This document shows, piece by piece, positions 313 through 37,983 of a stretch of 64,000 nucleotides of DNA. The stretch's first letter is position 1, and every line of letters begins with the position of its first letter. The notes under the pieces are model-generated. The model was given only the letters and a program-made list of their open reading frames with translations. It was not told where the DNA came from and ran no database searches. The stretch is from a virus: the IMG/VR virus record IMGVR_UViG_3300020183_000011. The stretch is one strand, 5' to 3'. A program made the translations under genes and the position numbers.

Positions 313-642
313 ATGGATCAAATAACGATAGACGAATCAGCTGCTAATAAGATTAAAACTCTCTTAGCTGACGAGGAAAACAAAGATTTATTGCTACGCA
401 TATTCGTGTCTGGAGGCGGGTGCTCCGGATTTCAATACGGGTTCACGTTTGATGAATGTCAAAATGAAGACGACTTTGTCATAGAACAATATGGTATTAA
501 ACTATTAGTAGACGCCATGAGCATGCAGTATTTAACAGGTGCAGAGATAGGTTATAAAACATCTTTAATGGGAGAACAATTTGAGATAAAGAACCCAAAT
601 GCTACAAGTAAATGTGGATGCGGTTCATCATTCTCAGCATAA
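313..642 (+). CDS. erpA: A-type Fe-S cluster insertion protein (ErpA/IscA, HesB family)
   Basis: [17 protein letters not shown] and C-terminal CGCGSSF motifs. Confidence 0.92.
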
Positions 643-643
643 T

Positions 644-1051
644 ATGGCTTATTCAGATAAAGTTTTAGATCACTATGAAAACCCGAGAAATGTAGGAAGC
701 CTTGATAAAGCAGATCCAAATGTAGGAACAGGGATGGTGGGTGCACCTGCTTGCGGTGACGTCATGAAATTACAAATTCAAGTAGGAGAAGATGGTGTTA
801 TCGAAGATGCAAAGTTTAAAACTTATGGTTGCGGTTCTGCTATTGCCAGTTCTAGTCTTGTTACAGAATGGCTCAAGGGCAAAACACTTGACGAGGCAAT
901 TGCAATCAAGAATTCAGATATTGCGGAAGAATTAGCTTTACCTCCTGTAAAAATTCACTGTTCAGTTTTAGCTGAAGATGCTATTAAAGCAGCTATCGCT
1001 GATCTTCAAAATAAACAAGTAAAAGCAGCCAAGTGTGTCTGCAAAGTATGA
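644..1051 (+). CDS. iscU: Fe-S cluster scaffold protein IscU
   Basis: MAYSDKVLDHYENPRNVG, GAPACGDVMKLQI, FKTYGCGSAIASSS, LPPVKIHCSVLAEDA. The true start is ATG 644, not 599. Confidence 0.95.
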   Translation: MAYSDKVLDHYENPRNVGSLDKADPNVGTGMVGAPACGDVMKLQIQVGEDGVIEDAKFKTYGCGSAIASSSLVTEWLKGKTLDEAIAIKNSDIAEELALPPVKIHCSVLAEDAIKAAIADLQNKQVKAAKCVCKV

Positions 1052-2363: not shown

Positions 2364-2632
2364 TGGAAGATATAGCTGACTTAATAAGCAAGTATGGGTT
2401 TCCCATCGTTGCAGCAGGCGGATTAGGATACTTCGTCTACTATATATGGAAATGGGTAACTGAAGAGATAGACCCTGTAATAGGTGAATCAAATAAAGTT
2501 TTAATTGAACTGATCGATCGTATCCGCATGTTGGATAATGACTTGATCAGGCTCAACCAAAAAGTGAATGTCATTTTGTCTTTAAGAGAGAGGGAAGAAA
2601 ATGAAGTTCACGATAAGGATACTAAGTCTTAG
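2363..2632 (+). CDS. Small single-TM plus coiled-coil membrane protein, paralog of 2085..2363
   Basis: LISKYGFPIVAAGGLGYFVYY...DLIRLNQKV aligns with the preceding ORF; GTG start overlaps the TAG stop. Confidence 0.55.
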   Translation: MEDIADLISKYGFPIVAAGGLGYFVYYIWKWVTEEIDPVIGESNKVLIELIDRIRMLDNDLIRLNQKVNVILSLREREENEVHDKDTKS

Positions 2633-3053
2633 TATTTTACTGATAGGTTGTGTCGCTCAGGCCCAACCACTCCCTGATTATACGTTCAAGAATCCATCCT
2701 TTAATGGAAATGGATACAGTAGCCACATATTGACTATTGAAAATCAAGAACGAACACGAAAAGATAATATCAAGAAAGAGATCCAAGCTGCATTAGATAA
2801 AGCAAAAAACGATGCTAACAACACTAATGTAGCTAAGTTCCTTAACAACCTTGAAAGCCGTATATATGCACAGATTAGTCAAAACCTAGCAACAGAGATG
2901 TTTGCAGATGGTGGTGCAACAAGTGGTACATTAAATTTCGAAGGTAACATCATAAATTGGAACAGGACTGGTACTGAGATCACAATGAACGTGACTGACT
3001 ATCTAGGCAGCACAACGACTGTTGTTATACCACTAGGACAGTGGCAATTCTAA
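2601..3053 (+). CDS. csgF: Curli assembly protein CsgF-like
   Basis: Signal peptide followed by YTFKNPSFNGNG (CsgF FxNPxFGG-type motif), FLNNLESRIYAQISQNL and a C-terminal G-STTTVVIP; directly upstream of csgG. Confidence 0.8.
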   Translation: MKFTIRILSLSILLIGCVAQAQPLPDYTFKNPSFNGNGYSSHILTIENQERTRKDNIKKEIQAALDKAKNDANNTNVAKFLNNLESRIYAQISQNLATEMFADGGATSGTLNFEGNIINWNRTGTEITMNVTDYLGSTTTVVIPLGQWQF

Positions 3054-3054
3054 A

Positions 3055-3855
3055 ATGTATAAACTACTAATTTTATTATCGCTGATGTTTTTAGCTGGTT
3101 GTGCAACTACTCGCGTAGTCACTACACCAGAAAAGCCTGTAGAGGTGAAGAGTATCATGCAAAAAGAGTTTGATACTATACCTCCACCTGCTGGTAGACC
3201 GATTATCGTAGCTGTATATACGTTTATTGATAAGACTGGTCAAAGAAGACCTGCTGCTAATTTTGCAAACCTTAGTTCAGCGGTAACACAAGGAGCCGAG
3301 GCTTTCTTAATAAAGGCTTTACAAGATGTAGGTAAAGGTGTTTGGTTTGAAGTCGTCGAAAGGGTAGGTATCGATAGCTTGACTAAAGAGAGACAACTAA
3401 TTCGTCAGATGCGTGAGGCGTATGATGGTCCTAAAGCTAAACCGTTAGGTCCAATGCTTTATGCAGGTGTCATCGTAGAAGGTGGTATAACTGGATATGA
3501 TACAAGCGTTAAGAGTGGTGGTAGTGCTGCACGTATGTTAGGCATTGGACCACAGACACAATACAGCGAAGACATAGTAACAGTAAGTCTTAGAGTTATT
3601 AGTGTAAACTCTGGTAAAGTTTTAGCTGCTGTAAATATACAGAAAACTATTTACAGCGCTAGTGATAGCATGGCAGTATTAAAGTTTATTAAAGATGGAA
3701 CACAGGCATTTGAGATAGAAAGTGGGTTAACCATAAATGAGCCTGGAACTCAAGCAGTAAAAGCTGCTATAGAGAGTGCAGTAGTAGAGTTAATAAAAGA
3801 AGGTAGCAAGAAAGGTATCTGGGAATTCTCCTATGAACCCTTGCAACCACAATAA
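3055..3855 (+). CDS. csgG: Curli secretion channel lipoprotein CsgG
   Basis: Lipobox LAGC; VAVYTFIDKTGQRRP, SSAVTQGA, WFEVVERVGIDSLTKERQLIR, EGGITGYD, NEP...AVKAAIESAVVELI..G. Confidence 0.92.
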   Translation: MYKLLILLSLMFLAGCATTRVVTTPEKPVEVKSIMQKEFDTIPPPAGRPIIVAVYTFIDKTGQRRPAANFANLSSAVTQGAEAFLIKALQDVGKGVWFEVVERVGIDSLTKERQLIRQMREAYDGPKAKPLGPMLYAGVIVEGGITGYDTSVKSGGSAARMLGIGPQTQYSEDIVTVSLRVISVNSGKVLAAVNIQKTIYSASDSMAVLKFIKDGTQAFEIESGLTINEPGTQAVKAAIESAVVELIKEGSKKGIWEFSYEPLQPQ

Positions 3856-3861
3856 GGAAAG

Positions 3862-4650
3862 ATGATGATAAAATCATTAAAACTTTTTATCATGATTTTA
3901 TTATTAAGTTTCAATGCATGGGCTGCAGACAATAGTATCTACATTGATCAAAGTGGTGATAACAGCACCATCGATGTGATACAAACTGGTGCAGGTAACG
4001 TCATACGTGGCATACAAGGAGTTGGTACAGGTAACACAACACCAGCAAAGATGTATGGTAACAACAGTGTAATCGATATCCAACAAATTGGTAGTACTAA
4101 CACATTAAACTTAGGTTTAAACGTAAGTACAGCAGTTGGTCGTGCGTATGGTATCGACTTAACATACTATGTAACTGGTAATAATGGTACAGCAACCATC
4201 AACAGTAACAATGCTGGTTCAGGTACAAGTGGAAGTAACTTCATAGATGTGCGTCAAACTGGTAACAGTGCAAGCATTAACTTGAACGTATTAGGTAGTA
4301 AGAATGACTTTACTGCTGTTACATCAGGTGGAGCTTCTAACAGTATCACTGCTACTATTAATGCAAACGAGACAGTAAGTAATATTAGTATGACTGGTGG
4401 TGCAAGTAATACATTTACTGGTACTCTTAGCAGCAACAAAGGTCAAGTTAACGTAACTACTGTTGGCGCAAGTAATGGTGTGACACTATCGCAAACTGGT
4501 ACTGCTGGTATTAATGGTCATGAATTTACACTAAACCTAACTGGATCTAGTAACACGTTTGGTGTTACTCAATCTGGAACTATTGACACAACAGTTAATG
4601 TATTGAGTTCTGGAAGCGGTAATACATGGAACATTACTACTGGAAATTAA
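3862..4650 (+). CDS. Secreted curlin-repeat protein (CsgA/CsgB-like)
   Basis: Signal peptide (…FNAWA) and G/N/S/T-rich imperfect curlin repeats: NSIYIDQSGDNSTIDVIQTGAGN, NSVIDIQQIGSTN, NFIDVRQTGNS, NGVTLSQTG, NTFGVTQSG. Confidence 0.72.
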   Translation: MMIKSLKLFIMILLLSFNAWAADNSIYIDQSGDNSTIDVIQTGAGNVIRGIQGVGTGNTTPAKMYGNNSVIDIQQIGSTNTLNLGLNVSTAVGRAYGIDLTYYVTGNNGTATINSNNAGSGTSGSNFIDVRQTGNSASINLNVLGSKNDFTAVTSGGASNSITATINANETVSNISMTGGASNTFTGTLSSNKGQVNVTTVGASNGVTLSQTGTAGINGHEFTLNLTGSSNTFGVTQSGTIDTTVNVLSSGSGNTWNITTGN

Positions 4651-5744
4651 TATGTATCATATTGCTCTGGCCGCAACTAACACTTGCGGCCGTGGGTAGT
4701 ATAACTGAACTTCAAAACACCCCCGCAAACATCCAACGTAAAGGCTCTAGTCTTACCGGAAATAAAGGTATAGGTGTAGAGATGAACGACGTCGTCAAGA
4801 CGGCTCAAGGCAAAACAGGTATAACTTTTGCTGACGACACAAGAGTACAAGTAAGTGAAAACAGTAAGCTAGTCATCGATGACTTTGTGTATGACCCTAA
4901 TAGCAAGAAGGGTGGTAAGCTTGCAATGAAGGTCGCTTTAGGCACAGTACGTTATGCATCAGGTGCAGTCGCACATAATAACCCAGACAACGTTAAGATC
5001 AATACACCAAGCGCTACTATCGCAGTCAGAGGTACAGACTTTACTGCTACAGTAGACGAGTTAGGTAGGAGCACCATAATCTTATTACCAAGTTGTCCTA
5101 AAGATTATAAAGACGTCATACTTGATTGTAAGACTGGTAAAATCGAAGTACTTACAGACGAAGGCAAAGTTGTATTAGATCAACCGTTTCAAGCCACGAG
5201 GGTTGATAACAGAGATAGTAAGCCGTTTAAACCAGTTACTTTAAACTTAGATGAAACTCAAATAAGTAACATACTCATATTAAGTCCACCAAAAGAGCTT
5301 AGAGAGTCTGATGAAGATAAATCTAAGAAGAGATCTGAAGTAAAAGGTGCACTAGATGTAGACTTCTTAGCGGAGAACAAACTCATAAACGTGTTAGAAA
5401 AACAGGCAGCTGAGACATATAAGAGCAAGCTAGATCGAAACTTCTTAGATAATGATTTATTAGCAAACATACTAGACATCATCAATGCACAATTAGCAGC
5501 TCAATTAGATCTATTAGGTAAGACTAAGTCTGGATTATTACCAGATTATATACCAACTTCTGGTGTATTAGTTGAAGTCGATGATCTACAAGTCACATTA
5601 TGTCGTGAAGGTAACGGAGATGTACAATGCATCACGACTCCAAAAAATCAAAATACAACCATAACACAAACTCAAGGACCAGTAGAGATCAAGAATAGGA
5701 TTAACAATGGTGGTAACACGGTTATTAACGCTACTCAAAATTAG
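4626..5744 (+). CDS. Secreted/periplasmic FecR-domain protein
   Basis: Signal peptide; VEMNDVVKT..G...ITFADDTRVQVSENSKLVID, GTVRYASG and INTPSATIAVRGTDF are FecR hallmarks. Confidence 0.85.
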   Translation: MEHYYWKLICIILLWPQLTLAAVGSITELQNTPANIQRKGSSLTGNKGIGVEMNDVVKTAQGKTGITFADDTRVQVSENSKLVIDDFVYDPNSKKGGKLAMKVALGTVRYASGAVAHNNPDNVKINTPSATIAVRGTDFTATVDELGRSTIILLPSCPKDYKDVILDCKTGKIEVLTDEGKVVLDQPFQATRVDNRDSKPFKPVTLNLDETQISNILILSPPKELRESDEDKSKKRSEVKGALDVDFLAENKLINVLEKQAAETYKSKLDRNFLDNDLLANILDIINAQLAAQLDLLGKTKSGLLPDYIPTSGVLVEVDDLQVTLCREGNGDVQCITTPKNQNTTITQTQGPVEIKNRINNGGNTVINATQN

Positions 5745-7230
5745 TCTATTGTTATTTTGCTTAGGTGCAAAAGCTGAAACTTTAGGTATAGGCTTTGAAA
5801 ATAATAGCATAGACGGGTGGACAGTTTCTGGAACATTAGCCGCTACGAAGAGTACATGGAGTTCTACAGGAGTGGGTGTAGCTCTTACCACAGGAGTTAC
5901 AAACTATAGTCCAGGTGGAGGTAAGACGTGGAACATAAACCCATATGGATCTTATATGGCTAGTATACAAGCTGGATCTTCAAACACTGTTACTTTTGAT
6001 AGTGCTATCAGCAGCTTAGGGTTGACTGGCACTGAAAATACTGCTATTAAACAATACCTGACATATCAATCACAAAACGGTGGAGGTGGAAACCCTACTC
6101 CAACTAATTCTAGCTGGATGAAAAAAACTTTTACGTTACAAACTGGTGTAACATACACGATTGCTTGGCAATACTTGAGTACAGACTACACACCATATAA
6201 TGACGGTAGTATCATGACACTAACACACACTAGTAATGCTAATATCATGCCAACACTAAACAACCTTGCACAAAGATATGCATTGTTAGGTTTTACAAAT
6301 CCTGGAACCGGTAACTATGCTACAGGCAGTTATGGAGCTACAGGATGGCAAGTAGCTCAGTTTACTGTTCCAGAAAATGGTAGTTATACTTTAGGCTTTG
6401 CATCGTTTAACTTAGGTGACACTGCATTGAGTCCTATCTTATTCATAGACGTCATGCAAGGAACTACTACACTCAATGGACAAACGTTTACACCAGTAAC
6501 ACCAAATGCTGGTAGCTCTGCTCCACCTCCTCCAGCTCCAGGCCCATCTTACAGTTCTGGAATAACACCAGCACAAACGACTACAAAGAACAATGCAAAT
6601 ACTATCAGACAAGGACAACATGGTAACGAGATATACGTTGAACAGTCTGGAAATAACAACACCTTTGATATTAGTCAAGGAGCTACAGTTACGGGTAAAG
6701 CTAGGATAGAACTATATTCTACGGGAGATAATAATACTTTTAACTTGAAACAAGGAAAGAACTCTGATGGCACTACGCCTTTGGCTGATAGTAATAATCA
6801 TTACTTATACTTTAACCTAAACGGTAGCTCAAACAATATCACTACAAGACAAGTGGATGGGACGACTTCAGGATCTGGTCATTTTAATCATTCGACTGTG
6901 GCTGGAAGCAATAACAGTATATTAAACTTACAAACTGGATCTGGTAGCAAGACTTTATTTCAAAGCGTAACTGGTAATAATAACACTGTGTCGACTACTC
7001 AGCAAGATTCTGGTCAACACTACTTAGACCTTAAACTAACTGGTCCTGGTCATAACACGACCATACTTCAGTCTGGTTCAGGTAATCATGCAGCAACCAT
7101 AGACTTAACAAATTCTGGTGGAGCAGCTACATTAAACCTTAATCAGTCAGGATCAACTAATCAAGTTTACAGTATCCAACAAAGTTGTGTTACTGCTGCA
7201 GGTTGCTCAACAAGCATCACACAACCATAG
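5707..7230 (+). CDS. Secreted two-domain protein: N-terminal globular beta domain, Pro linker, C-terminal curlin repeats
   Basis: Signal peptide (LLLFCLGAKA); SSAPPPPAPGPS linker; NEIYVEQSGNNNTFDISQG, NNTFNLKQG, NNITTRQ, NNSILNLQTG, NTVSTTQQ, HNTTILQSGSGN; ends QQSCVTAAGCSTSITQP. Confidence 0.7.
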   Translation: MVVTRLLTLLKISLLLFCLGAKAETLGIGFENNSIDGWTVSGTLAATKSTWSSTGVGVALTTGVTNYSPGGGKTWNINPYGSYMASIQAGSSNTVTFDSAISSLGLTGTENTAIKQYLTYQSQNGGGGNPTPTNSSWMKKTFTLQTGVTYTIAWQYLSTDYTPYNDGSIMTLTHTSNANIMPTLNNLAQRYALLGFTNPGTGNYATGSYGATGWQVAQFTVPENGSYTLGFASFNLGDTALSPILFIDVMQGTTTLNGQTFTPVTPNAGSSAPPPPAPGPSYSSGITPAQTTTKNNANTIRQGQHGNEIYVEQSGNNNTFDISQGATVTGKARIELYSTGDNNTFNLKQGKNSDGTTPLADSNNHYLYFNLNGSSNNITTRQVDGTTSGSGHFNHSTVAGSNNSILNLQTGSGSKTLFQSVTGNNNTVSTTQQDSGQHYLDLKLTGPGHNTTILQSGSGNHAATIDLTNSGGAATLNLNQSGSTNQVYSIQQSCVTAAGCSTSITQP

Positions 7231-7241
7231 ATAAATAACAA

Positions 7242-7985
7242 ATGAAAAAGTATAAGACTATTTGCATCTCTGACACTCATCTTGGTTCTAAGGATGCTAA
7301 GGCTGATCTACTTAATAATTTCCTTAAACACCATGAATGTGATAATCTGTTCTTAGTAGGAGACATCATAGATGGATGGAAGATACAGCAGAACAAATGG
7401 AAATGGAAGCAAAGCCATACTAATGTTATCCGTAGGATACTAGGTTATGCTAAACGTGGAACTAAGGTTACATATGTGACTGGCAACCATGATGAGTTCC
7501 TTAGACCATTCGTCAATCAGTTTGCTTTAGGTTCTATTACTATATGTAACCAAGCAGAGTATAGAGACACTGATGGAAACCTATTCTTAGTAACACATGG
7601 TGACATGTTTGATGGTATTACAAGAGTTGGTAAATGGATTGGGTTTCTTGGCGATACAGCTTATGATTGTGTATTATGGATCAATACTAAATTTAACTAC
7701 ATAAGACATAGGTTAGGGTTTGGTTATTGGTCATTAAGTAAGTTTCTTAAACATCAAGTAAAGAAAGCGATAGATTTTGTATTCAAATTCGAAGAAAACC
7801 TTGCAGGATACTGTGAACGAAAAAACTTTGATGGAGTTATTTGCGGCCATATCCATACTCCACAGATTAAGACAATCAATGGAATAATCTACATGAATGA
7901 TGGTGACTGGGTAGAATCATGCTCAGCTCTTGTAGAACATGAAGATGGTAAATGGGAAATAATTTATTGGAATGAGATCATATGA
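7242..7985 (+). CDS. plcP: PlcP-like metallophosphoesterase (phospholipase C; family often annotated as UDP-2,3-diacylglucosamine hydrolase)
   Basis: ISDTHLG, LVGDIIDGW, GNHDEFLR, HGDMFD, LGDTAYD, LGFGYWSLS..LK..VKKA, GVICGHIH, YMNDGDWVESCSALVE. Confidence 0.78.
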   Translation: MKKYKTICISDTHLGSKDAKADLLNNFLKHHECDNLFLVGDIIDGWKIQQNKWKWKQSHTNVIRRILGYAKRGTKVTYVTGNHDEFLRPFVNQFALGSITICNQAEYRDTDGNLFLVTHGDMFDGITRVGKWIGFLGDTAYDCVLWINTKFNYIRHRLGFGYWSLSKFLKHQVKKAIDFVFKFEENLAGYCERKNFDGVICGHIHTPQIKTINGIIYMNDGDWVESCSALVEHEDGKWEIIYWNEII

Positions 7986-8974
7986 AGATATTAATAGTAA
8001 CAGACAATTTAAGAGATCAAGTCAATGGCGTTGTCACTACATACAAAAATATTGAGGATCATGCTGTTTCTGCTGGTCATAGTATTGTTTATCTTGATCC
8101 CGGGAAGTTCCGTCATATTAGCTGTCCTTTTTATCCTGAGGTCAAACTTTCCCTTCCTTCGTTCTTTATCAGTAAGATTAAGAAGATGGGTGCGGATCGT
8201 ATTCACATCGCGACAGAGGGACCGCTAGGACTATTTGCAAAGTTCTACTGTGACGCAAACAAGATACCATACACTACAGCGTATCATACTAAGTTTCCAG
8301 AATTCTTAAAAAAATTATTATGGATACCTACATCTATCACATATAGGTATCTTAAATGGTTTCACAAGTATTCAAAAGCTGTGTTAGTACCGAGTGAATC
8401 GATGAGCATAGAATTGCAATCTAAGGGGTTTGTAAATCTAGTTATATGGACTAGAGGCGTATCAAAAGATCTCATAGAAAAGCGTAAAGACAAAACAAAG
8501 AATATGCCTCCAAAGATTTTGTATGTAGGTCGGGTAAGCAAAGAAAAGAACTTAGAAGACTTATGTAATTTACAAAATATGTATGATATCACTGTAGTCG
8601 GAGACGGGCCTATTTTACCTCAGCTGATCCGCAAATACAGAAAGGTTAACTTTACTGGTTATAAATTTGGAGATGAATTAAAGCAAATATATGTAGAGAA
8701 CGACATATTTGTTTTCCCAAGTCTAACTGATACTTTTGGTATAGTTATCATAGAAGCTTTATGTAATGGATTACCTGTAGCAGCATATAGGGTAACTGGT
8801 CCACAAGATATCATTGAATATGGTGTTACAGGATATCTAAGCATGTATGGCAATGGGTTACAGTCTGCTATAGAAAAATGTAAGTCATTAGATAACGTTA
8901 AAGTACAAGAATTATCTATTAAAACATGGACTTGGAAAAATTGTTTTGATATATTTATCAAAGCTGTTAAATAA
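7982..8974 (+). CDS. agt: GT4 glycosyltransferase, Agt-like (diacylglycerol glycosyltransferase)
   Basis: MKILIVTD...QVNGVV, YPEVKL, IHIATEGPLG, TTAYHTKFPE, WTRGV, YVGRVSKEKN, FVFPSLTDTFGIVIIEA..GLPVAAY; ATGA-coupled to the plcP-like gene. Confidence 0.75.
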   Translation: MKILIVTDNLRDQVNGVVTTYKNIEDHAVSAGHSIVYLDPGKFRHISCPFYPEVKLSLPSFFISKIKKMGADRIHIATEGPLGLFAKFYCDANKIPYTTAYHTKFPEFLKKLLWIPTSITYRYLKWFHKYSKAVLVPSESMSIELQSKGFVNLVIWTRGVSKDLIEKRKDKTKNMPPKILYVGRVSKEKNLEDLCNLQNMYDITVVGDGPILPQLIRKYRKVNFTGYKFGDELKQIYVENDIFVFPSLTDTFGIVIIEALCNGLPVAAYRVTGPQDIIEYGVTGYLSMYGNGLQSAIEKCKSLDNVKVQELSIKTWTWKNCFDIFIKAVK

Positions 8975-8975
8975 T

Positions 8976-9004
8976 TTTACTTTAATTAACTATAGGAGTA
9001 TAAT
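8976..9004 (+). promoter_or_regulatory. Sigma70-like early/middle promoter
   Basis: TTTACT-17 nt-TATAAT; one of 10 copies of the T(G/T)TAC(A/T)TT(A/T)A motif. Confidence 0.7.
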
Positions 9005-9010
9005 GTCAAT

Positions 9011-9646
9011 ATGAGTTTCCTTGTAGCTAACTTGCCTCCAGTACATTGCTATGTTCGTAAGGAGTTCTTATATGATTTTAAATCTGGTCATGGCGAATAT
9101 GAGTCATGTATATGGGTTAGTATCAAGAGCCTTCGTAGTCAAGCATTTAGGATAGAGTCATACTTCCCAAGATACGGAGCTTTATATGATAAGTTGCCGT
9201 TGCATGCTTATGTAAGTAGAACGACTGATCTAGAACCTGAAAAGTTCTTATCACTAGACACTTTACAGATATGGGATTGTTTTAGTTATGACATAGCAGT
9301 CATACAAAAAGCATTCTTAAGGAACTTAAGCTGTAAGGTGTATGCTAAAGATAAACAGTTTCATCATGGTGACTATATGTTTACGGTAGATAATTCAGCT
9401 CCAGACTTAAACATACTAGATACGAGTTACAGTGAAGTTCCAGAAGATCATAAGAGTTTTAACTTTATACAACTAAACAATGGACAGTATGCTGCTCAGC
9501 CGAATAACAGGTGTATATTCTTTGATGCAGCAAGTAATCCAAAAGAGATGTTATTCCCTGATTTTAAAGTCTGCACCAAGAAGTATGTGGTAGAGACTAA
9601 TCCTAAATGGAGACTAGGTGATAGCGATACAGTAACATACGAATAA
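9011..9646 (+). CDS. Conserved hypothetical protein
   Basis: Clean 211 aa ORF downstream of the promoter; LQIWDCFSY and GQYAAQPNNR motifs; no function recognised. Confidence 0.7.
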   Translation: MSFLVANLPPVHCYVRKEFLYDFKSGHGEYESCIWVSIKSLRSQAFRIESYFPRYGALYDKLPLHAYVSRTTDLEPEKFLSLDTLQIWDCFSYDIAVIQKAFLRNLSCKVYAKDKQFHHGDYMFTVDNSAPDLNILDTSYSEVPEDHKSFNFIQLNNGQYAAQPNNRCIFFDAASNPKEMLFPDFKVCTKKYVVETNPKWRLGDSDTVTYE

Positions 9647-9654
9647 ATAAACAT

Positions 9655-11664
9655 ATGAAAAAATTACTTAGCCCATGGTTTGCACTAGTCACCCTATTAG
9701 TTTTAGTAGGCATTAGAGTATCAGATCCATCATTTGTAGAGTCAGTTCGTCTTAGATACTTTGACACGCTGATCACAAGTAAACCTGTAGTACAATCAAA
9801 ACAAGTCCATGTCGTAAACATAGATGATAAGTCTATAGAACACCTTGGGCAATTTCCATTTCCAAGGACCCAATATGCAAATATCATCGAAGATCTTTAC
9901 AGCCGTGGGGCTGGTCTTGTTGTCTTTAATCTGTTTATGCCTGATAGTGATAGGTTTGGAAAAGATGCTGGACTGGCTGATACCCTTACTAGGCATCCTG
10001 TAGTATTACCACAAGTCGCAACATCAGACAAACAAAAACCTGGTGCATTTAGACCGGGAGTATCAGAAATCGGAGGCAAAGCTTCTGATCATGCAGTAAA
10101 CTATCCGGGCATTCAAGCCAATATATCATCATTTAACAGCAAAGCTGCTGGAATAGGAGTCGTAAATGTATTACCTGAAATTGATGGTGTTGTTCGTCGT
10201 ATCCCTATGGTCGTCGCAAGTGATGGCCAATTGTACCCAAGTATCAGTCTTGAAACAATGCGTGTTGCAGTTGGAGACCCAAGTTTCCAAGTCAAGTCAA
10301 ACGCAAACGGGATTGAAGCTGTCAGAATACCTAGCTTCGCCAAGGTCGTCACAGACCCAATGGGTAGAATATGGGTCGATTGGAGTTCCACGCCGATTGA
10401 ACACAGTCTTGTGGGATTACCCAAGTCATTCGATGGAGGTATCGTCATCGTTGGGTTATCGGCACGCGGACTTAACAATCCCGTTGCAACCCCACGAGGA
10501 GCCGTCTATCCTCATTATGTACAAGCTTCAGTTTTAGATACACTAACATCTGGCGCCAACATATCTCGTCCTGATTGGGCAGATGGTGCTGAGATGCTTG
10601 CTATAGTTGTATTATCAATCATCATAATCTTTTTAACGAGGTGGAAATATGCTATTCTTCCTATCATTAGTATTATTGGTTCTATATATTACGCTTCTCG
10701 CTACGTGTTCGCCCATCAAGGTATTCTGTTGGACGGCATTTATCCTATTATTAGCTTGTCTGTTGTCTATGGTCATGCATACACCGTTAAGTTCATTTCT
10801 GAATTAAACCAAAAGCTACAGATCAAGAAACAATTTGGTACATACTTATCGCCAGCAATGGTTGAAAAGTTACAAAAGAACCCAGAGCTATTGAAGCTTG
10901 GTGGTGAGACTAGAGAATTATCAATCATGTTTACAGACGTTCGTGGCTTCACGACTATCTCAGAACATTATGGTAAAGACGTTCAAGGTCTGACTAAGAT
11001 CATGAACAGATACATGACAGCCATGACAGCAAAGATCATTGAAAATAATGGTACACTTGATAAGTATATAGGTGATGCTCAGATGGCTTTTTGGAATGCT
11101 CCTTTAGATGATAAGGATCATGCATTAAATGCAGTTAAGACTGGATTGGAGATGTTAAATGATTTGGATAAATTCAATGAAGAGATCGCTAAAGAAAATA
11201 TACCAGCGTTCGGTATGGGACTTGGTATTAACAGCGGCGACGTGGTTGTTGGGAATATGGGTAGCAGCCAGCGTTTTGATTACACTTGTCTTGGTGATGC
11301 GGTCAATCTTGCTTCCCGTTTAGAAGGACAATCAAAGAACTATGGTGTACGTATCGTATTAGGTACAAAGACCGCAGAGTATGCTAAAGAAGTTTATTCA
11401 GTCGTAGAGATGGATACGATCGCTGTTAAGGGCAAGACCGAAGGAGTTAAGGTATACACGATAGGCGAGACTATTAAACATAAACATGAAGAGTATCTAA
11501 AAGAATACTATCGCGGTAATTGGAAACGTGCTACAGAATGGGCACAAGAACTCATCGATGATAAGAACGTTACTATCAAAGACTACTATCACAAGATGAT
11601 AGAACGAATGGACGAAGGTCTCCCTGCTGAGTGGGACGGTGTATATCGAGCCACAAGCAAGTAA
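9655..11664 (+). CDS. CHASE2-domain membrane class III adenylate cyclase
   Basis: N-terminal TM; CHASE2 (VVNIDDKSIEHLGQFPFPRT, EIDGVVRRIP); 3 TMs; cyclase motifs FTDVRGFT, DKYIGDAQMAFW, GNMGS..RFDYTCLGDAVNLASRLEG. Confidence 0.93.
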   Translation: MKKLLSPWFALVTLLVLVGIRVSDPSFVESVRLRYFDTLITSKPVVQSKQVHVVNIDDKSIEHLGQFPFPRTQYANIIEDLYSRGAGLVVFNLFMPDSDRFGKDAGLADTLTRHPVVLPQVATSDKQKPGAFRPGVSEIGGKASDHAVNYPGIQANISSFNSKAAGIGVVNVLPEIDGVVRRIPMVVASDGQLYPSISLETMRVAVGDPSFQVKSNANGIEAVRIPSFAKVVTDPMGRIWVDWSSTPIEHSLVGLPKSFDGGIVIVGLSARGLNNPVATPRGAVYPHYVQASVLDTLTSGANISRPDWADGAEMLAIVVLSIIIIFLTRWKYAILPIISIIGSIYYASRYVFAHQGILLDGIYPIISLSVVYGHAYTVKFISELNQKLQIKKQFGTYLSPAMVEKLQKNPELLKLGGETRELSIMFTDVRGFTTISEHYGKDVQGLTKIMNRYMTAMTAKIIENNGTLDKYIGDAQMAFWNAPLDDKDHALNAVKTGLEMLNDLDKFNEEIAKENIPAFGMGLGINSGDVVVGNMGSSQRFDYTCLGDAVNLASRLEGQSKNYGVRIVLGTKTAEYAKEVYSVVEMDTIAVKGKTEGVKVYTIGETIKHKHEEYLKEYYRGNWKRATEWAQELIDDKNVTIKDYYHKMIERMDEGLPAEWDGVYRATSK

Positions 11665-12380
11665 TGAAGTTCTTAATTTTACTTTTATTAGCATTCAACT
11701 GCTATGCTCAAGACATAACTGCTAACTCATGGGTGGTGACAGATGAAGATGGAAAGGTGATCGCGGGGCAAAATATTGCAGAAGTCAGGTCAATAGCATC
11801 TATCACAAAACTAGTCACAGCGATGACCATATTAAACAGCGGAGAGAACATAGAAGCTCCAGTCAAGACTAAAGCTTTTGGTATGATAACACGCCATCAG
11901 CTGATAGACATGGCCATAGTAAAGTCAAATAACCAAACTGCAGACTTATTATGTCAGTTATATGTAGGTGGATATGACAGGTGTATAGCTGACATGAATC
12001 ACTTGTTATTTAAGCTTAACCTACTCAACACCATCGTCTATGATGCTACTGGTCTTGATAGACGTAACAAATCCACAGCCATGGAGCTAACACAGTTAGT
12101 CCAGGAAGCTGCAAAATATCCAGAATTAGTCAACGCATCTCAACAGGCAAAGATCAAGATTAAGACCAAGAAGCGTTTCTGGGTCTTTAAGAACACTAAC
12201 CCTCTCATAGGTAAACGTCAGGACATACTGATCTCCAAGACAGGCTATACAAGGCCTGCCGGAGGCTGCCTGGCGATGCTTATGTCCACAGATAAGGGCC
12301 AGAGATCAGTCGTGGTTTTAGGCTCCCAGAACACTCATACACGCATCCCCGAAGCTGAATTCTTAGCTGAAAATTACTAA
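11664..12380 (+). CDS. Peptidase S11 (D-Ala-D-Ala carboxy/endopeptidase, PBP7-like), secreted
   Basis: Signal peptide; SIASITK (SxxK), KSNN (SxN), SKTGY (KTG); TAATG overlap with the cyclase stop. Confidence 0.88.
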   Translation: MKFLILLLLAFNCYAQDITANSWVVTDEDGKVIAGQNIAEVRSIASITKLVTAMTILNSGENIEAPVKTKAFGMITRHQLIDMAIVKSNNQTADLLCQLYVGGYDRCIADMNHLLFKLNLLNTIVYDATGLDRRNKSTAMELTQLVQEAAKYPELVNASQQAKIKIKTKKRFWVFKNTNPLIGKRQDILISKTGYTRPAGGCLAMLMSTDKGQRSVVVLGSQNTHTRIPEAEFLAENY

Positions 12381-12396
12381 TAAAATCATAGGTTTA

Positions 12397-12409
12397 TAAG
12401 TTATTGATT
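12397..12409 (-). promoter_or_regulatory. IHF consensus site upstream of an early promoter
   Basis: Reverse complement AATCAATAACTTA matches WATCAANNNNTTR. Confidence 0.45.
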
Positions 12410-12439
12410 TATATAGATAATTTATTTTAGTCCAGACTA

Positions 12440-12468
12440 TGTACATTAATTAGCCTTTTCTGTATAAT
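12440..12468 (+). promoter_or_regulatory. Sigma70-like early promoter
   Basis: TGTACATTAAT...TATAAT with a 17 nt spacer. Confidence 0.75.
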
Positions 12469-12501
12469 GGTTCTATACTAATTAATAACGGAGAGAAAAC
12501 T

Positions 12502-12774
12502 ATGAAGACAAATACAGAACAATTAGCTTGGGAAATTCAAGCTTATGGCATGACAAAAGCTCAATTAAATCTAATGGTAAAACAACAAGCTTTTCCAGGT
12601 ACTGAGATGATGTTTGCAGCTGGCTTATTAAGCGACGCTCAACAAATCATGGATCCAGAATTCAATGATGAAGGTTGGGTAAGTCCTAAGACAGCTAATC
12701 AAGCTCGTCAGTACATCAACTGTGCTAAGGCAATCATGTTTGATGTTATGGATCCATCAAGAAAGGCTGCTTAA
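12502..12774 (+). CDS. Hypothetical early protein
   Basis: ORF with GGAGAG RBS, downstream of the promoter. Confidence 0.7.
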   Translation: MKTNTEQLAWEIQAYGMTKAQLNLMVKQQAFPGTEMMFAAGLLSDAQQIMDPEFNDEGWVSPKTANQARQYINCAKAIMFDVMDPSRKAA

Positions 12775-12935
12775 TGACCTTCAAAGTGAATGGGCACTAT
12801 TATAAGTGTATTGTTAACCCTCAGTTTGCCTTCTCTGGTAATACTTTGGAAGGCTGGATGTTAACAGCGCAAGATAACGATAACGGTATCATTGACAGTT
12901 TACTTAAAGCAAGATTTATCAAGGAGATTATATAA
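12774..12935 (+). CDS. Small hypothetical protein (53 aa; not in the ORF track)
   Basis: MTFKVNGHYYKCIVNPQFAFSG...IKEII*, with TAATG overlaps at both ends. Confidence 0.6.
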   Translation: MTFKVNGHYYKCIVNPQFAFSGNTLEGWMLTAQDNDNGIIDSLLKARFIKEII

Positions 12936-13303
12936 TGGGATTAGATATGACAGCATACACCCGCGCGAAGGGTGCCGAAGAAACAACAGAGATCCAATAC
13001 TGGCGTAAACACAACGCGCTTCATGGTCTCATGGAAGAGATATGGCGTGATAAGGCTGAGTTAGCTGGTGAGGACATTAGCGATGTTCAGTTTAACTGTG
13101 TTGAGTTACAACTTACTGAAGCTGATCTTGACTATATCGAGTCACAGGTTGTAGGTGAAACTTTACCAGAAACAGAAGGCTTCTTTTTTGGTCATGACTC
13201 AAGGTTTAGTGACGAAGACAAATTAAAGGACTTAGAGTTCATCACTAAGGCTCGTGAAGCTTTGGCCAACGGTGAAGAAGTATTTTACGATAGTTGGTGG
13301 TAA
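12935..13303 (+). CDS. Conserved phage hypothetical protein (MGLDM...YWRK.N.LHG...YDSWW type)
   Basis: Recurrent phage family signature; AAGGAG RBS. Confidence 0.7.
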   Translation: MGLDMTAYTRAKGAEETTEIQYWRKHNALHGLMEEIWRDKAELAGEDISDVQFNCVELQLTEADLDYIESQVVGETLPETEGFFFGHDSRFSDEDKLKDLEFITKAREALANGEEVFYDSWW

Positions 13304-35808: not shown

Positions 35809-36300
35809 ATGCCTACTCAGCAAATAGATTTTAGTACAATCCAAAATATATATCTAAATGGTAATGAAATTTTTGAATTACAATTAGATAATCAAGTATT
35901 ATGGAAAAAGTATCTATTTAATGGTACGACAACTTTTACCACTTCATATAATACATCAGTATCAAGTACGACTAGTGCTATAACAAATTATGCTACAAAT
36001 TATACAACATCAGTTACAACTTCTAATCTGACAGCTTATTCACAAACTACGTCTAATACTACATCGATCGCTACTATTGTTGGGCAGGACAAAAAACTCG
36101 GACCAATATATGCAAATACTGCTTATTTGACGTATTTTATTACTTCATACAATGAAACTACTTCATATACTACTTCATGGTCTACAAGTAACACAACTAG
36201 TAACACGACTTCATATTTGACAAATTATCTAGCTTCTACTTCTAACCCAACAAGTTTAAATTATAGTACGTATTTGATAACATATATTGGTAAAGTTTAA
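35809..36300 (+). CDS. Thr/Ser-rich tetrapeptide-repeat protein
   Basis: IQNIYLNGNEI...VLW N-terminus followed by TTSY/TTSW/STSN/TTSN/LTNY repeats. Confidence 0.65.
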   Translation: MPTQQIDFSTIQNIYLNGNEIFELQLDNQVLWKKYLFNGTTTFTTSYNTSVSSTTSAITNYATNYTTSVTTSNLTAYSQTTSNTTSIATIVGQDKKLGPIYANTAYLTYFITSYNETTSYTTSWSTSNTTSNTTSYLTNYLASTSNPTSLNYSTYLITYIGKV

Positions 36301-37184
36301 TGGATACAATTAACAGTAGATGGGAAGATGAATCACGGATAGGTAATAATGTACCGCTTTATGATAAAGAAATCTTTTTAGAGATTGAAAAATATATTAT
36401 AAAAACATGTGCTAAGTACGACTTAACCTGTAAGTATAATGTTGGCCCATTAATAGGAGGGGTTCCTCCTATCGAAGATAATACAATCATAGTTAATCCG
36501 TTAGTTAATGCTATAGCATATCATGATGTTATGGGTGGTATCCTGATAAGTACTAGAAACGCTGAACTAAACTGCAGAAATGTTGACACAATATTAGCTA
36601 ATCATATGACAGATGATATATCTGAAATTGTTATTTCTAAATTAAAAGACAAGTATGTATTAAATAGTAGTGATAAACTATATGATAAAGTTGCATTTAT
36701 GCCGGGATCTAACTTATTTCATACAGTTAATTGGGAAAAACTAAATGAAGCTATGATTGATAATCCATCTGCTATGATTAAACTACACCCAGTTATAACT
36801 GAAAAGTCTGCTAAGTCAATTAAGAATAAGTGGCCTGAAAGAGTTATAGATGAAAAAACTAGTGGACTACAGCTACTTAATGCTTCATCTTTAATTTGGA
36901 CTTCTTATAATAGTGAATTTGGTTTAATAGCTAGTTTAAAGAAAATACCATTTTCAAATTTAAGTAAATGGAATGATATATTTTCAATGGTATATGCACC
37001 AATATATAGAAATTTAAAATATAAAGATTTAGAGCATAATAAAGATGTAGTTTCAAAAGTAATTTCAAGTAAGAGAAGTGGATACATATTTCCTTGGCAA
37101 GATGATTGGAAACAGCGAGTTGAAATATATTTTGAATCTATACATAAGTTTAATACTGGAATGGAATATCCATATGCCGAGTAA
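36300..37184 (+). CDS. Hypothetical protein, possible GT-B / capsule-polysaccharide (KpsS-like) transferase
   Basis: IKLHP...SGLQLLNASSLIWTSYNSEFGLIA.LKKIP resembles the KxHP...L..s..v.T.nSt.G.eA...gkP motif. Confidence 0.4.
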   Translation: MDTINSRWEDESRIGNNVPLYDKEIFLEIEKYIIKTCAKYDLTCKYNVGPLIGGVPPIEDNTIIVNPLVNAIAYHDVMGGILISTRNAELNCRNVDTILANHMTDDISEIVISKLKDKYVLNSSDKLYDKVAFMPGSNLFHTVNWEKLNEAMIDNPSAMIKLHPVITEKSAKSIKNKWPERVIDEKTSGLQLLNASSLIWTSYNSEFGLIASLKKIPFSNLSKWNDIFSMVYAPIYRNLKYKDLEHNKDVVSKVISSKRSGYIFPWQDDWKQRVEIYFESIHKFNTGMEYPYAE

Positions 37185-37983
37185 AGTAATATCACAACAA
37201 TTAAAAATATATTCTGAAAATATAGATCATCATTTAGCCATCAATAGTATACCAAATTGTGGGCTTGTTACTTTATTAGATGATGCTGATATTATCTTAG
37301 ATTCAACAAATAAATTAGAATTTAAAAATATAGATATAAATGCATATTTTTCTAATAAAAGGACTAATATTAAAAGCATGCCGGCTTATGTAAAATATAT
37401 TGATCAACAAAGTATGTTATATCATATTAATAATAAGCAAGTATTGTATTCAAAGATCTCCGTGGTTCCATTCCATGAATTTATTAATAATACTTCATTT
37501 AAGTATTTTGTTGATATGTATAAAGATCAAACATTTGACTTAGTTAAGCTTGATAAAGATGATGAAACTGTTTTAACAACTGATACGCTAGAAAATATAT
37601 TAATCATTCATGATAATTTATTAGAAACAACATTGATAGAAGATGTAATGTTTAGTTCAAACTCAAAATATATGGTCAGAAAAATAAAAAATCCTCAAAC
37701 AAAATATGTTTATGGAGCTATTTCTTTTGATGGTACATCACTCCATATTGCTACTAATGTTAGGATGCCTAATCAAATTTTATCATTGGTTAAATTATTA
37801 TTTGCGGCTTGTGCCGGGTTTTTTCAAATAGAATACTTTGATAATGTTAATAAGTATGAAATTTATAGTTTTAAATTTTCAATGGATCTAGATATTTTAT
37901 CAGATAATATAATTAATATACCTCAAGTGCAAAAAGCTTTTGAAGAAATTTCAAATCAATATGAATTTGGAATGGATGTATGA
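37174..37983 (+). CDS. Hypothetical protein (weak ATP-grasp-like features)
   Basis: AT-rich ORF starting MPSKV; YMVRKI and GFFQIEY segments are only suggestive. Confidence 0.35.
   Translation: MPSKVISQQLKIYSENIDHHLAINSIPNCGLVTLLDDADIILDSTNKLEFKNIDINAYFSNKRTNIKSMPAYVKYIDQQSMLYHINNKQVLYSKISVVPFHEFINNTSFKYFVDMYKDQTFDLVKLDKDDETVLTTDTLENILIIHDNLLETTLIEDVMFSSNSKYMVRKIKNPQTKYVYGAISFDGTSLHIATNVRMPNQILSLVKLLFAACAGFFQIEYFDNVNKYEIYSFKFSMDLDILSDNIINIPQVQKAFEEISNQYEFGMDV

What the first reader, a model, noticed from the sequence alone, without database searches (positions are those of the whole stretch)
7242..8974. Phage-encoded PlcP-Agt pair: host phospholipid-to-glycolipid remodelling as an auxiliary metabolic module
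Seen: a coupled (ATGA) metallophosphoesterase and GT4 gene pair. The phosphoesterase has GNHD (LpxH has GNRD), LGDxAYD, YWSLS and NxGDWVESC. The GT4 has TD..xQVNGVV, IHIATEGPLG and YHTxFPE. Known: these motifs match PlcP (phospholipase C releasing diacylglycerol) and Agt (making glucosyl/glucuronosyl-DAG). The adjacent plcP-agt pair drives P-starvation lipid remodelling in alphaproteobacteria such as SAR11 and rhizobia. Inference: the phage could mine membrane phosphate for genome replication while keeping the membrane intact, or change the surface to exclude competitors. It is preceded by a late-type GATAAATA and no Pho box is visible, which suggests phage-timed rather than PhoB-timed expression. 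I am not aware of this pair being described as a phage module.
Basis: partly seen in the sequence, partly recalled or inferred. Interest (0 to 1): 0.82.

Follow-up and report, generated by a model that had tools for sequence, protein, structure and literature searches.

The report
Phage-borne PlcP-Agt lipid-remodelling gene pair
A T4-like marine phage carries its own copies of the two bacterial enzymes that strip the phosphate head from membrane lipids and rebuild them as sugar lipids, so the virus probably reshapes its host's membrane and may draw phosphorus from it; I found no paper describing this in phages.

Summary
Window 7242-7985 encodes a 247-aa metallophosphoesterase and 7982-8974 a 330-aa GT4 glycosyltransferase, joined by an ATGA overlap, in a T4-like myophage of the pelagimyophage/Melnitz group (csgF/csgG just upstream).

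The phosphoesterase is not LpxH:
- It scores 33-43 bits against LpxH cut-offs of 134-190.
- It has GNHD where all five LpxH compared have GNRD.
- It is split from LpxH by a 100%-supported branch.
- It is a separate paralogue in genomes that also hold a true LpxH.

It sits in the clade of bacterial genes that are followed by an agt-type GT4 (44 of 80 loci) and preceded by Pho boxes, which is the published plcP-agt operon. The GT4 keeps the catalytic and diacylglycerol-binding residues mapped in SAR11 GTcp. Its best match in 5 of 5 genomes is the plcP-adjacent transferase.

Both genes form virus-only clades and are under purifying selection (dN/dS 0.03 and 0.11-0.16). At least 532 IMG/VR stretches carry the phosphoesterase. 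Many of them sit behind Pho-box-like repeats or beside pstS.

This window has no Pho box. It has a conserved NATAAATA late-type motif 4 nt before the start codon.

I found no paper on phage plcP; virome surveys list 'lpxH'. This scan has already noted the same module on many other phage genomes.

The parts
7230..7237 (+). GATAAATA, a late-promoter-type NATAAATA motif 4 nt before the plcP start codon
   Evidence: Present. The octamer is not enriched window-wide: 7 matches against 5.0 expected. The arrangement NATAAATA-N4-6-ATG does recur before 7 window genes, including the gp25-like gene at 39081. It is kept at the same place before plcP in L172 (TATAAATA N6), L173 (CATAAATA N5) and Mosig (AATAAATA N5). 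Its function is inferred.
7242..7985 (+). plcP-like gene: 247-aa LpxH-fold, two-metal phosphoesterase, predicted phospholipase C that releases diacylglycerol
   Evidence: Pfam Metallophos. Scores are below the LpxH equivalog cut-offs. All metal-ligand motifs are present, with GNHD rather than GNRD. It falls in the PlcP-type clade, separated from LpxH with 100% support. The AF2 model's best Foldseek hits are LpxH at about 20% identity. dN/dS is 0.03.
7982..7985 (+). ATGA stop/start overlap coupling plcP to agt
   Evidence: Read directly from the sequence. In L172 and L173 a 42-aa basic ORF, itself ATGA-coupled on both sides, lies between the two genes. It is missing here.
7982..8974 (+). agt-like gene: 330-aa retaining GT4 (GT-B) glycosyltransferase, predicted diacylglycerol glucosyl/glucuronosyl transferase
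   Evidence: Pfam GT4 domains. H102, T157-R158, GRVSKEKN, FPSLTDTFG (D250) and W318 correspond to GTcp His104, Thr162/Arg163, the two UDP-sugar motifs, Asp256 and Trp320. Its best genome-wide match in 5 of 5 genomes is the plcP-adjacent GT. AF2 pLDDT is 89 with a GT-B fold. dN/dS is 0.11-0.16.

Best explanation
The pair is a virus-borne version of the bacterial PlcP-Agt lipid-renovation operon. The first enzyme, a cytoplasmic two-metal phosphoesterase of the PlcP clade, cuts the phospho-head group from host phosphatidylethanolamine or phosphatidylglycerol and leaves diacylglycerol. The second, an Agt/GTcp-type GT4, immediately glycosylates that diacylglycerol from a UDP-sugar to give phosphorus-free glucosyl- or glucuronosyl-diacylglycerol, so the membrane stays intact. 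The released phospho-head groups can feed the nucleotide pool for phage DNA.

In this phage the two genes are translationally coupled. They appear to be driven by the phage's own late-type NATAAATA element rather than by host PhoB, so remodelling would occur in every infection.

Shown here: family membership, intact catalytic residues, conserved synteny, purifying selection, virus-specific clades, and linkage of viral relatives to Pho boxes and pstS. Inferred: substrates and products, expression timing, and the benefit to the phage.

I put about 0.85 on the enzymatic identity. I put about 0.55 on phosphorus salvage being the main selective benefit.
For: - Not LpxH. It scores 43 and 33 bits against cut-offs of 134 and 190. 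True LpxH (197-341 bits) sits elsewhere in four genomes that also carry the window-type gene at 28-48 bits. Of the control genomes, only E. coli exceeds the cut-off. GNHD is invariant in 172 family members, against GNRD in 5 of 5 LpxH. YWSLS and NxGDWVES are conserved across the family and absent from LpxH. The LpxH split has 100% support in FastTree and in IQ-TREE C20.
- plcP-type clade. 44 of 80 bacterial relatives (Pseudomonas, Caulobacter, Cupriavidus, a Pelagibacteraceae SAG and others; 46-59% identity) have the window-type GT4 directly downstream. This is the arrangement published for plcP-agt (PMC4796936, PMC8528852). Characterised PlcPs share only 46-47% identity with one another.
- Pho regulation in bacteria. 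Pho-box matches of at least 11 of 14 positions occur upstream of 32 of 78 bacterial genes, against 12 of 390 control segments.
- The GT4. It keeps the GTcp catalytic dyad, both UDP-sugar motifs and the DAG-binding residues. Its top hit in 5 of 5 genomes is the plcP-adjacent GT at 215-264 bits. Other GT4s score 36 bits or less, apart from Agt2-like second copies.
- Viral context. At least 532 IMG/VR stretches carry the phosphoesterase. 21 of 80 have a GT4 within 2.5 kb. L172 and L173 are syntenic with the window. Four of five large viral records tested carry a large terminase. Of 38 exact Pho-box-like repeats in 988 kb of viral loci, 21 precede plcP and about 10 precede an adjacent pstS. Mosig's copy is the divergent neighbour of pstS.
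- Selection. dN/dS is 0.03 for the phosphoesterase and 0.11-0.16 for the GT4.
Against: - No enzyme assay exists for any viral copy.
- I could not align the window proteins directly with the characterised proteins (SMc00171, MED193_17359, PB7211_983, PA3219, Atu2297, WP_008545403.1), because no tool gave me their sequences. Membership rests on clade, synteny, motifs and published residue numbers.
- The predicted lipid-binding lid (residues 124-177) is modelled poorly, with pLDDT below 50.
- The window lacks a Pho box and a pstS neighbour, so the phosphate link is by kinship only.
- The phosphorus yield looks modest. Remodelling frees about 0.27 million P atoms per Phaeobacter cell, roughly one 150-kb genome's worth (my arithmetic: 300,000 P atoms). 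The burst size is about 9 for a cultured pelagimyophage.
- With only 4 nt between NATAAATA and the ATG, a T4-style late start site would give a leaderless or truncated message.
- The host is unknown. GC is about 38-39%, and gp6 is only 40-41% identical to the SAR11 and OM43 phage proteins.
Confidence: 0.8

Rival explanations
1. The enzymes are as above, but the benefit is envelope engineering rather than phosphorus salvage. Replacing phospholipids with glycolipids late in infection would change membrane charge or fluidity. That could serve the neighbouring curli-type secretion, FecR, CHASE2-cyclase and DD-peptidase genes, block superinfection, or control lysis timing.
For: The pair sits inside an envelope-directed island: CsgF, CsgG, curlin-like proteins, FecR, a CHASE2 cyclase and Peptidase_S11. 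This synteny is kept in L172 and L173. There is no Pho box and no pstS here, and there is a late-type motif. The phosphorus yield is small relative to burst demand. Published work shows that host lipid remodelling alters grazing and phage attachment (titles and abstracts of PMC9457565 and PMC9938194).
Against: In viral relatives plcP is tied to pstS and to Pho-box-like repeats. Close T4-like relatives that share the curli island (L090, L091) still carry three such repeats before plcP. The GT4 is often absent while plcP is kept. That fits head-group release as the core function better than glycolipid production.
Confidence: 0.2
2. The database reading is right: the first gene is LpxH (UDP-2,3-diacylglucosamine diphosphatase) and the second an LPS or cell-wall glycosyltransferase, together modifying lipid A or LPS.
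For: Automatic names in IMG and GenBank say so, including 'LpxH' and 'glycosyltransferase involved in cell wall biosynthesis'. LpxH is the closest solved fold: Foldseek E 2e-11 and profile E 3.7e-07.
Against: Scores are far below both LpxH equivalog cut-offs. The motif is GNHD, not GNRD. The gene is a separate paralogue in genomes that hold a true LpxH, and the split has 100% support. A single-sequence search finds no PDB LpxH. The GT4 matches LPS GT models only at 20-33 bits against cut-offs of 385 or more, and in whole genomes it picks the plcP-linked GT.
Confidence: 0.02
3. The pair is a recently captured, selectively neutral passenger, or it acts on non-lipid substrates such as nucleotides or phage DNA glycosylation.
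For: It lies in a hypervariable region whose gene content differs between close relatives. The GT4 is absent in L082-L091, orf 9011-9646 is inserted only in the window, and the 42-aa ORF is lost here. Metallophosphoesterases and GT4 enzymes are functionally diverse families.
Against: dN/dS is low. Both genes form virus-only clades with 99-100% support, which implies long residence in phages. All catalytic residues are intact. The GT4 shares 38-45% identity over its full length with plcP-linked GTs, and other GT4 matches are negligible.
Confidence: 0.03

Closest known systems
Bacterial PlcP-Agt lipid-renovation operon (S. meliloti SMc00171; Phaeobacter MED193_17359; SAR11 HTCC7211 PB7211_983 / GTcp; P. 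aeruginosa PA3219-PA3218)
   Same: The gene order is the same, with a phosphoesterase followed by a GT4. Identity to bacterial members is 46-59% for the phosphoesterase and 36-45% for the GT4, the range seen among characterised PlcPs. The signature motifs and the GTcp catalytic and DAG-binding residues are present.
   Different: It is encoded by a lytic T4-like phage. Both proteins fall in virus-only clades. There is no Pho box; an NATAAATA late-type motif abuts the start codon. The two genes are fused by an ATGA overlap.
LpxH (UDP-2,3-diacylglucosamine diphosphatase, lipid A pathway)
   Same: It shares the calcineurin-like fold with a helical insertion between the metal motifs, and the same metal ligands. 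LpxH is the nearest solved structure.
   Different: Identity is about 20%. It has GNHD instead of GNRD, scores below the family cut-offs, is a separate paralogue and forms a separate clade.
Phage phosphate-stress auxiliary genes (pstS, phoA, phoH of marine T4-like phages)
   Same: It is a host-derived gene set in the variable region of aquatic T4-like and jumbo phages. Relatives place plcP behind Pho-box-like repeats and next to pstS.
   Different: It targets an internal phosphorus store, the membrane lipid, rather than external phosphate. This window's copy shows no Pho control.
Pelagibacter phage Mosig EXVC030M gene Mosig_00120, annotated 'putative UDP-2,3-diacylglucosamine hydrolase'
   Same: It is the only cultured pelagiphage homologue, at 46.7% identity and of the same family. 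It has AATAAATA-N5-ATG before the gene.
   Different: Mosig has no agt and is paired divergently with pstS. In the tree it sits with Hyphomonas and Hellea rather than in the main viral clade, which suggests a separate acquisition.

Membership tests
PlcP (metallophosphoesterase phospholipase C of lipid renovation) | Calcineurin-like fold with a complete set of metal-ligand motifs (DxH, GD, GNH[DE], H, GHxH) | tested here: met
   Pfam Metallophos at 9e-12. D11/H13, D41, N82/H83, H119 and H203/H205 are present and invariant across the family.
PlcP (metallophosphoesterase phospholipase C of lipid renovation) | Falls in the clade of plcP-type genes, apart from LpxH | tested here: met
   LpxH is split off with 100% support. 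Whole-genome paralogue test. GNHD against GNRD, plus the YWSLS and NxGDWVES signatures.
PlcP (metallophosphoesterase phospholipase C of lipid renovation) | Operon-like linkage to a non-phosphorus-lipid synthesis gene (agt type) | tested here: met
   ATGA-coupled GT4 in the window. The same linkage occurs in 44 of 80 bacterial loci and about 23 of 82 viral loci.
PlcP (metallophosphoesterase phospholipase C of lipid renovation) | Pho-box (PhoB) control | tested here: not met
   There is no Pho box in the window. The feature is met in many bacterial and viral relatives. It concerns regulation, not enzymatic membership.
PlcP (metallophosphoesterase phospholipase C of lipid renovation) | Direct sequence comparison with experimentally characterised PlcPs | not testable with these tools
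   No tool returned SMc00171, MED193_17359, PB7211_983 or PA3219. The cluster look-up gave no accessions. Only proxies were used: a Pelagibacteraceae SAG and Pseudomonas species.
PlcP (metallophosphoesterase phospholipase C of lipid renovation) | Mn-dependent hydrolysis of PE/PG/PC to diacylglycerol | not testable with these tools
   Needs biochemistry.
Agt / GTcp clade of GT4 (diacylglycerol glycosyltransferases) | GT4 GT-B fold | tested here: met
   Pfam domains. AF2 pLDDT 89. Best folds are BshA, MshA and PimA-type GT4 at TM about 0.7.
Agt / GTcp clade of GT4 (diacylglycerol glycosyltransferases) | His/Asp catalytic dyad, the GRVAxEKN and FPSxTDTFG motifs, and DAG-binding Thr-Arg and C-terminal Trp (PMC8231724) | tested here: met
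   H102, D250 in FPSLTDTFG, GRVSKEKN (Ala to Ser), T157-R158 and W318, all conserved in the family alignment. The correspondence is by motif and position, not by alignment to GTcp itself.
Agt / GTcp clade of GT4 (diacylglycerol glycosyltransferases) | Closest relatives are plcP-linked GTs, not LPS or EPS GT4s | tested here: met
   Top hit in 5 of 5 genomes is the plcP-adjacent gene at 215-264 bits. Other GT4s score 36 bits or less, except Agt2-like copies. All NCBIfam LPS/EPS models are far below their cut-offs.
Agt / GTcp clade of GT4 (diacylglycerol glycosyltransferases) | Product identity (MGlc-DAG, GlcA-DAG or MGal-DAG) and donor specificity | not testable with these tools
   Needs lipidomics or enzyme assays.
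LpxH | Scores above the curated equivalog cut-offs (TIGR01854, NF003743) | tested here: not met
   32.7 bits against 190.35, and 43.1 against 134.
LpxH | GNRD motif | tested here: not met
   GNHD in the window. GNRD in 5 of 5 LpxH and in the PDB LpxH alignment.

The most novel reading that the evidence does not exclude
Phages from at least two lineages, T4-like marine or lake myophages and roughly 350-kb jumbo phages, maintain their own long-resident PlcP-Agt lineage. They use it to convert host membrane phospholipid into glycolipid and to reclaim the phosphorus. In most lineages host PhoB switches it on together with pstS. In this curli-bearing marine lineage it has been rewired to the phage's late programme, possibly as a leaderless transcript, so that every infected cell is remodelled whatever its phosphorus status. 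Virome surveys have been counting the gene as the LPS gene 'lpxH'.
Probability: 0.45. Interest if true: 0.78.

Novelty: new variant of a known kind. Interest (0 to 1): 0.68.

Why it matters
Lipid renovation is a major way in which ocean bacteria lower their phosphorus quota. Phosphorus is also the element that most limits phage DNA synthesis.

A virus-encoded PlcP-Agt pair would add the host membrane to the list of phosphorus sources that phages control, alongside pstS and phoA. It would change the lipid composition of infected cells, and therefore what is released on lysis and how grazers and other phages see those cells.

It also means that 'lpxH' entries in viral auxiliary-gene catalogues (for example PMC10653327 and PMC9611531) should be re-examined.

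The idea is directly testable by expression followed by lipidomics, and with the cultured phage Mosig.

Tried and rejected
- The single-protein scan of genome contigs found nothing.
- Megablast of 5000-13000 against isolate phages gave no match.
- phmmer of the phosphoesterase against PDB gave no hit. Only the profile reached LpxH.
- The cluster look-up gave no accession numbers, so it provided no anchor to characterised proteins.
- No whole genome is held for the window.
- GATAAATA and TATAAATA are not enriched window-wide. The signal lies in their position before start codons.
- Sigma-70-like promoter and terminator scans were at background level.
- The ESM Atlas search for orf 9011-9646 was uninformative.
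- The idea that the viral clade is mis-binned bacterial DNA was rejected. Four of five large records tested carry a large terminase, and many loci share phage genes with the window.
- The LpxH reading and the passenger-gene reading were rejected; see the rival explanations.
Full report
**What is there.** Window 7242-7985 (+) encodes a 247-aa protein and 7982-8974 (+) a 330-aa protein. The TGA stop of the first overlaps the ATG of the second, giving ATGA at 7982-7985. Pfam assigns the first to the calcineurin-like phosphoesterases (Metallophos, 9e-12). It assigns the second to GT4 glycosyltransferases (Glyco_trans_1_4, Glycos_transf_1, Glyco_transf_4).

**The replicon.** It is a T4-like myophage:
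- A gp6-type baseplate wedge matches phrog_219 at 1.6e-174, and a gp5 hub is present.
- gp32, gp59, the RNase H C-terminal domain and a T4 baseplate protein are present.
- The nearest isolates by gp6, at 40-41% identity, are Pelagibacter phages HTVC008M and Mosig and the OM43 phage Melnitz.
- CsgF (2601-3053) and CsgG (3055-3855) lie just upstream. This is the curli cluster described for pelagimyophages and Melnitz (PMC7029224, PMC9004378).
- GC is about 38-39%, and the host is unknown.

**The phosphoesterase is not LpxH.**
- Databases name its relatives LpxH. It scores only 43.1 and 32.7 bits against NCBIfam LpxH equivalogs whose cut-offs are 134 and 190.
- A single-sequence search finds no solved structure.
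- A family profile reaches LpxH only at E 3.7e-07, and that alignment shows GNRD in LpxH where the family has GNHDE.
- In four gamma- and betaproteobacterial genomes a true LpxH (197-341 bits, above cut-off) lies at one place and the window-type gene (28-48 bits) at another.
- A Pelagibacteraceae single-cell genome has only the window-type gene. Among 14 control genomes only E. coli exceeds the cut-off, and Caulobacter matches only below it.
- In a 178-row alignment GNHD is invariant in 172 family members, against GNRD in 5 of 5 LpxH. YWSLS and NxGDWVES are conserved across the family and absent from LpxH. All metal-ligand motifs are kept.
- FastTree, and IQ-TREE under LG+C20+F+G4, both split LpxH from the family with 100% support across a very long branch.
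- The AF2 model (pLDDT 79; the helical insert 124-177 is poorly defined) has LpxH as its 24 best Foldseek hits, at about 20% identity and TM about 0.56. It is therefore an LpxH-fold enzyme of a different family.

**The family is the plcP type.**
- Of the 80 best bacterial loci, 44 carry a full-length homologue of the window GT4 (36-45% identity) directly downstream. These loci come from Hyphomonas, Pseudomonas, Caulobacter, Cupriavidus, a Pelagibacteraceae SAG and others, at 46-59% identity.
- That is the plcP-agt arrangement shown experimentally in Phaeobacter, SAR11 HTCC7211 and P. aeruginosa (PMC4796936, PMC8528852).
- Characterised PlcPs are only 46-47% identical to one another, so the window protein lies within the family's spread.
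- As an independent check, I scored the 250 nt upstream of each bacterial gene against the Pho-box consensus CTGTCAT-N4-CTGTCAT. 32 of 78 reach at least 11 of 14 positions, against 12 of 390 control segments.

**The GT4 is Agt-type.**
- The SAR11 enzyme GTcp (334 aa) has a His104-Asp256 dyad, the motifs GRVAxEKN and FPSxTDTFG, and DAG-binding Thr162, Arg163 and Trp320 (PMC8231724).
- The window protein has H102 (YHT), T157-R158, GRVSKEKN, FPSLTDTFG with D250, and W318. All are conserved in the alignment of plcP-linked GTs.
- Searched against five whole genomes, its best match is always the plcP-adjacent gene (215-264 bits, 38-45% identity). Every other GT4 scores 36 bits or less, apart from second Agt-like copies. 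P. aeruginosa is likewise reported to have an Agt2.
- LPS and EPS GT models are far below their cut-offs.
- The AF2 model (pLDDT 89) is a standard retaining GT-B enzyme, with no solved relative above 18% identity.

**The viral dimension.**
- Among about 50,700 isolate phage records only Mosig (46.7%), cyanophage S-SRM01 (36%) and one unverified faecal contig carry the phosphoesterase.
- Of the best 80, 21 have a GT4 within 2.5 kb.
- Two contigs, L172 and L173, are syntenic with the window: csgG, a curlin-like gene, FecR, a second curlin-like gene, plcP (96% and 84%), agt (84% and 77%) and the CHASE2 cyclase.
- A second large subclade lies on contigs that CheckV rates as 34-95% of roughly 350-kb genomes. 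A large-terminase search hit four of five large records, three from this subclade plus the 219-kb record of L091, a relative from the window's own subclade.
- In both gene trees, all viral and metagenome sequences that were picked by similarity form one clade apart from the bacterial ones: 99% support for plcP and 100% for agt.
- Mosig groups with Hyphomonas and Hellea, and S-SRM01 is a deep long branch, so there was more than one capture.
- Window against L172 and L173 gives dN/dS of 0.03 for plcP and 0.11-0.16 for agt.
- Caveat: the bacterial reference set was capped, so 'virus-only' may soften with fuller sampling.

**Regulation.** The window has no Pho box. The 11-nt gap before plcP holds GATAAATA.
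- That octamer is not enriched overall. However, 13 of the window's 28 ATAAATA sites lie within 45 nt upstream of gene starts.
- Seven genes, including the gp25-like gene at 39081, show NATAAATA followed by 4-6 nt and ATG.
- The same arrangement precedes plcP in L172, L173 and Mosig, even though the flanking sequences differ.
- By analogy with T4-type late promoters (my knowledge), transcription would start at or next to the ATG.

Many relatives differ from the window. Upstream of plcP they carry YTGTMAY-N4-YTGTMAY direct repeats.
- In 14 of the 21 loci with such a repeat, TAAATA follows exactly 11 nt later. This is the architecture of a PhoB-dependent promoter.
- Across 988 kb of viral loci the exact pattern occurs 38 times. 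21 of these precede plcP, and about 10 more precede an adjacent pstS (PBP_like_2, 1e-32).
- In one 250-kb phage record the pattern occurs once, before a pstS-plcP pair.
- T4-like relatives that share the curli island (L090, L091) have three repeats, and L090 has pstS right after plcP.
- Mosig's plcP is the divergent neighbour of pstS.

So the viral family is tied to phosphate stress. The window's sub-lineage seems to have exchanged PhoB control for the phage's own programme.

**Mechanism and its limits.** The best-supported reading has three steps. PlcP releases DAG and phospho-head groups from host PE or PG. Agt glycosylates the DAG. The head-group phosphorus becomes available.

The yield is modest. 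Remodelling freed about 0.27 million P atoms per Phaeobacter cell. That is about one 150-kb genome by my arithmetic, against a burst of about 9. Membrane engineering, in an island full of envelope genes, therefore remains a serious alternative purpose.

**Literature and earlier findings.**
- Searches combining plcP with phage and viral terms, lpxH with auxiliary-gene terms, and lipid remodelling with phage-encoded found no description of a phage plcP or plcP-agt.
- The pelagimyophage, Mosig and Melnitz papers do not mention it.
- Two virome papers list 'lpxH' as an LPS auxiliary gene. I could not check whether those are this family.
- This scan's notebook shows the same module reported from many other phage genomes, with the same reading. 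I consulted it after my own analysis.

Noticed in passing
window 313, 2085, 7242, 9655, 29163(-), 39081, 59361 (gene starts): NATAAATA followed by only 4-6 nt and then ATG recurs before seven genes, including a gp25-like baseplate gene. A T4-type late start site would fall on or beside the ATG, which suggests leaderless late messages or a dual promoter/translation signal.
   Followed up: partly
L088-L161 viral loci, e.g. L155, L110, L144, L090, L091; L176:1501-1518: Pho-box-like repeats YTGTMAY-N4-YTGTMAY, often with TAAATA exactly 11 nt downstream, precede phage plcP and phage pstS almost exclusively: about 31 of 38 occurrences in 988 kb. In one 250-kb phage record the only copy precedes a pstS-plcP pair.
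   Followed up: yes
L172:4513-4642 and L173:7874-8003: A 42-aa, very basic ORF lies between plcP and agt, ATGA-coupled on both sides. It has been deleted in the window, leaving plcP and agt directly coupled.
   Followed up: partly
window 2601-7230: This is the curli-type cluster: CsgF (3e-16), CsgG (2.7e-46), a repeat protein at 3862-4650, a FecR-domain protein at 4626-5744 and a 507-aa curlin-like protein at 5707-7230. A protein in the same cluster of relative L177 hits PA14 and Curlin_rpt. Published pelagimyophage papers say the curlin subunits are missing.
   Followed up: partly
window 9655-12380: A CHASE2 plus class III nucleotide cyclase (669 aa) is followed by a Peptidase_S11 DD-peptidase. 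Both are conserved next to plcP in several viral relatives.
   Followed up: no
window 9011-9646: This 211-aa ORF belongs to phrog_3704 (4.8e-86, labelled 'ferredoxin'; no Pfam hit). It is inserted between agt and the cyclase only in the window and has its own sigma-70-like promoter at 8976-9004. Homologues lie near plcP in 12 of 80 viral loci.
   Followed up: partly
L131:3474-4718 and 8895-9785; also L128, L132, L158, L104, L116, L155, L159: Jumbo-phage loci carry a UDP-glucose/GDP-mannose dehydrogenase-like gene within 5 kb of plcP, a possible source of UDP-glucuronate. They also carry a RimK-type ATP-grasp gene between plcP and agt.
   Followed up: partly
GT4 alignment (jumbo-phage loci): About 16 of 40 viral and metagenome Agt-like proteins read FPSxWETFG, with Glu at the position of GTcp Asp256. 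The D256E mutant of GTcp lost more than 90% of its activity. These copies may have altered activity or specificity.
   Followed up: no
L016 (Pelagibacteraceae SAG), GT downstream of plcP: The SAR11 single-cell genome's Agt-like protein has Cys (YCT) where the catalytic His of GTcp (YHT) is expected.
   Followed up: no
L001:7900-7965 (Mosig pstS-plcP intergenic region): TTTAACA-N4-CTTAACA and further TTAAC repeats lie between the divergent pstS and plcP genes. They have the 7+4+7 spacing of a Pho box but different letters, and could be a SAR11-type Pho box.
   Followed up: no
window 599-1051 and 36001-38000: A NifU/IscU-like iron-sulfur scaffold gene (8e-53) lies at the left end of the window. 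A 2-kb stretch has only 27.6% GC, against about 39% elsewhere.
   Followed up: no
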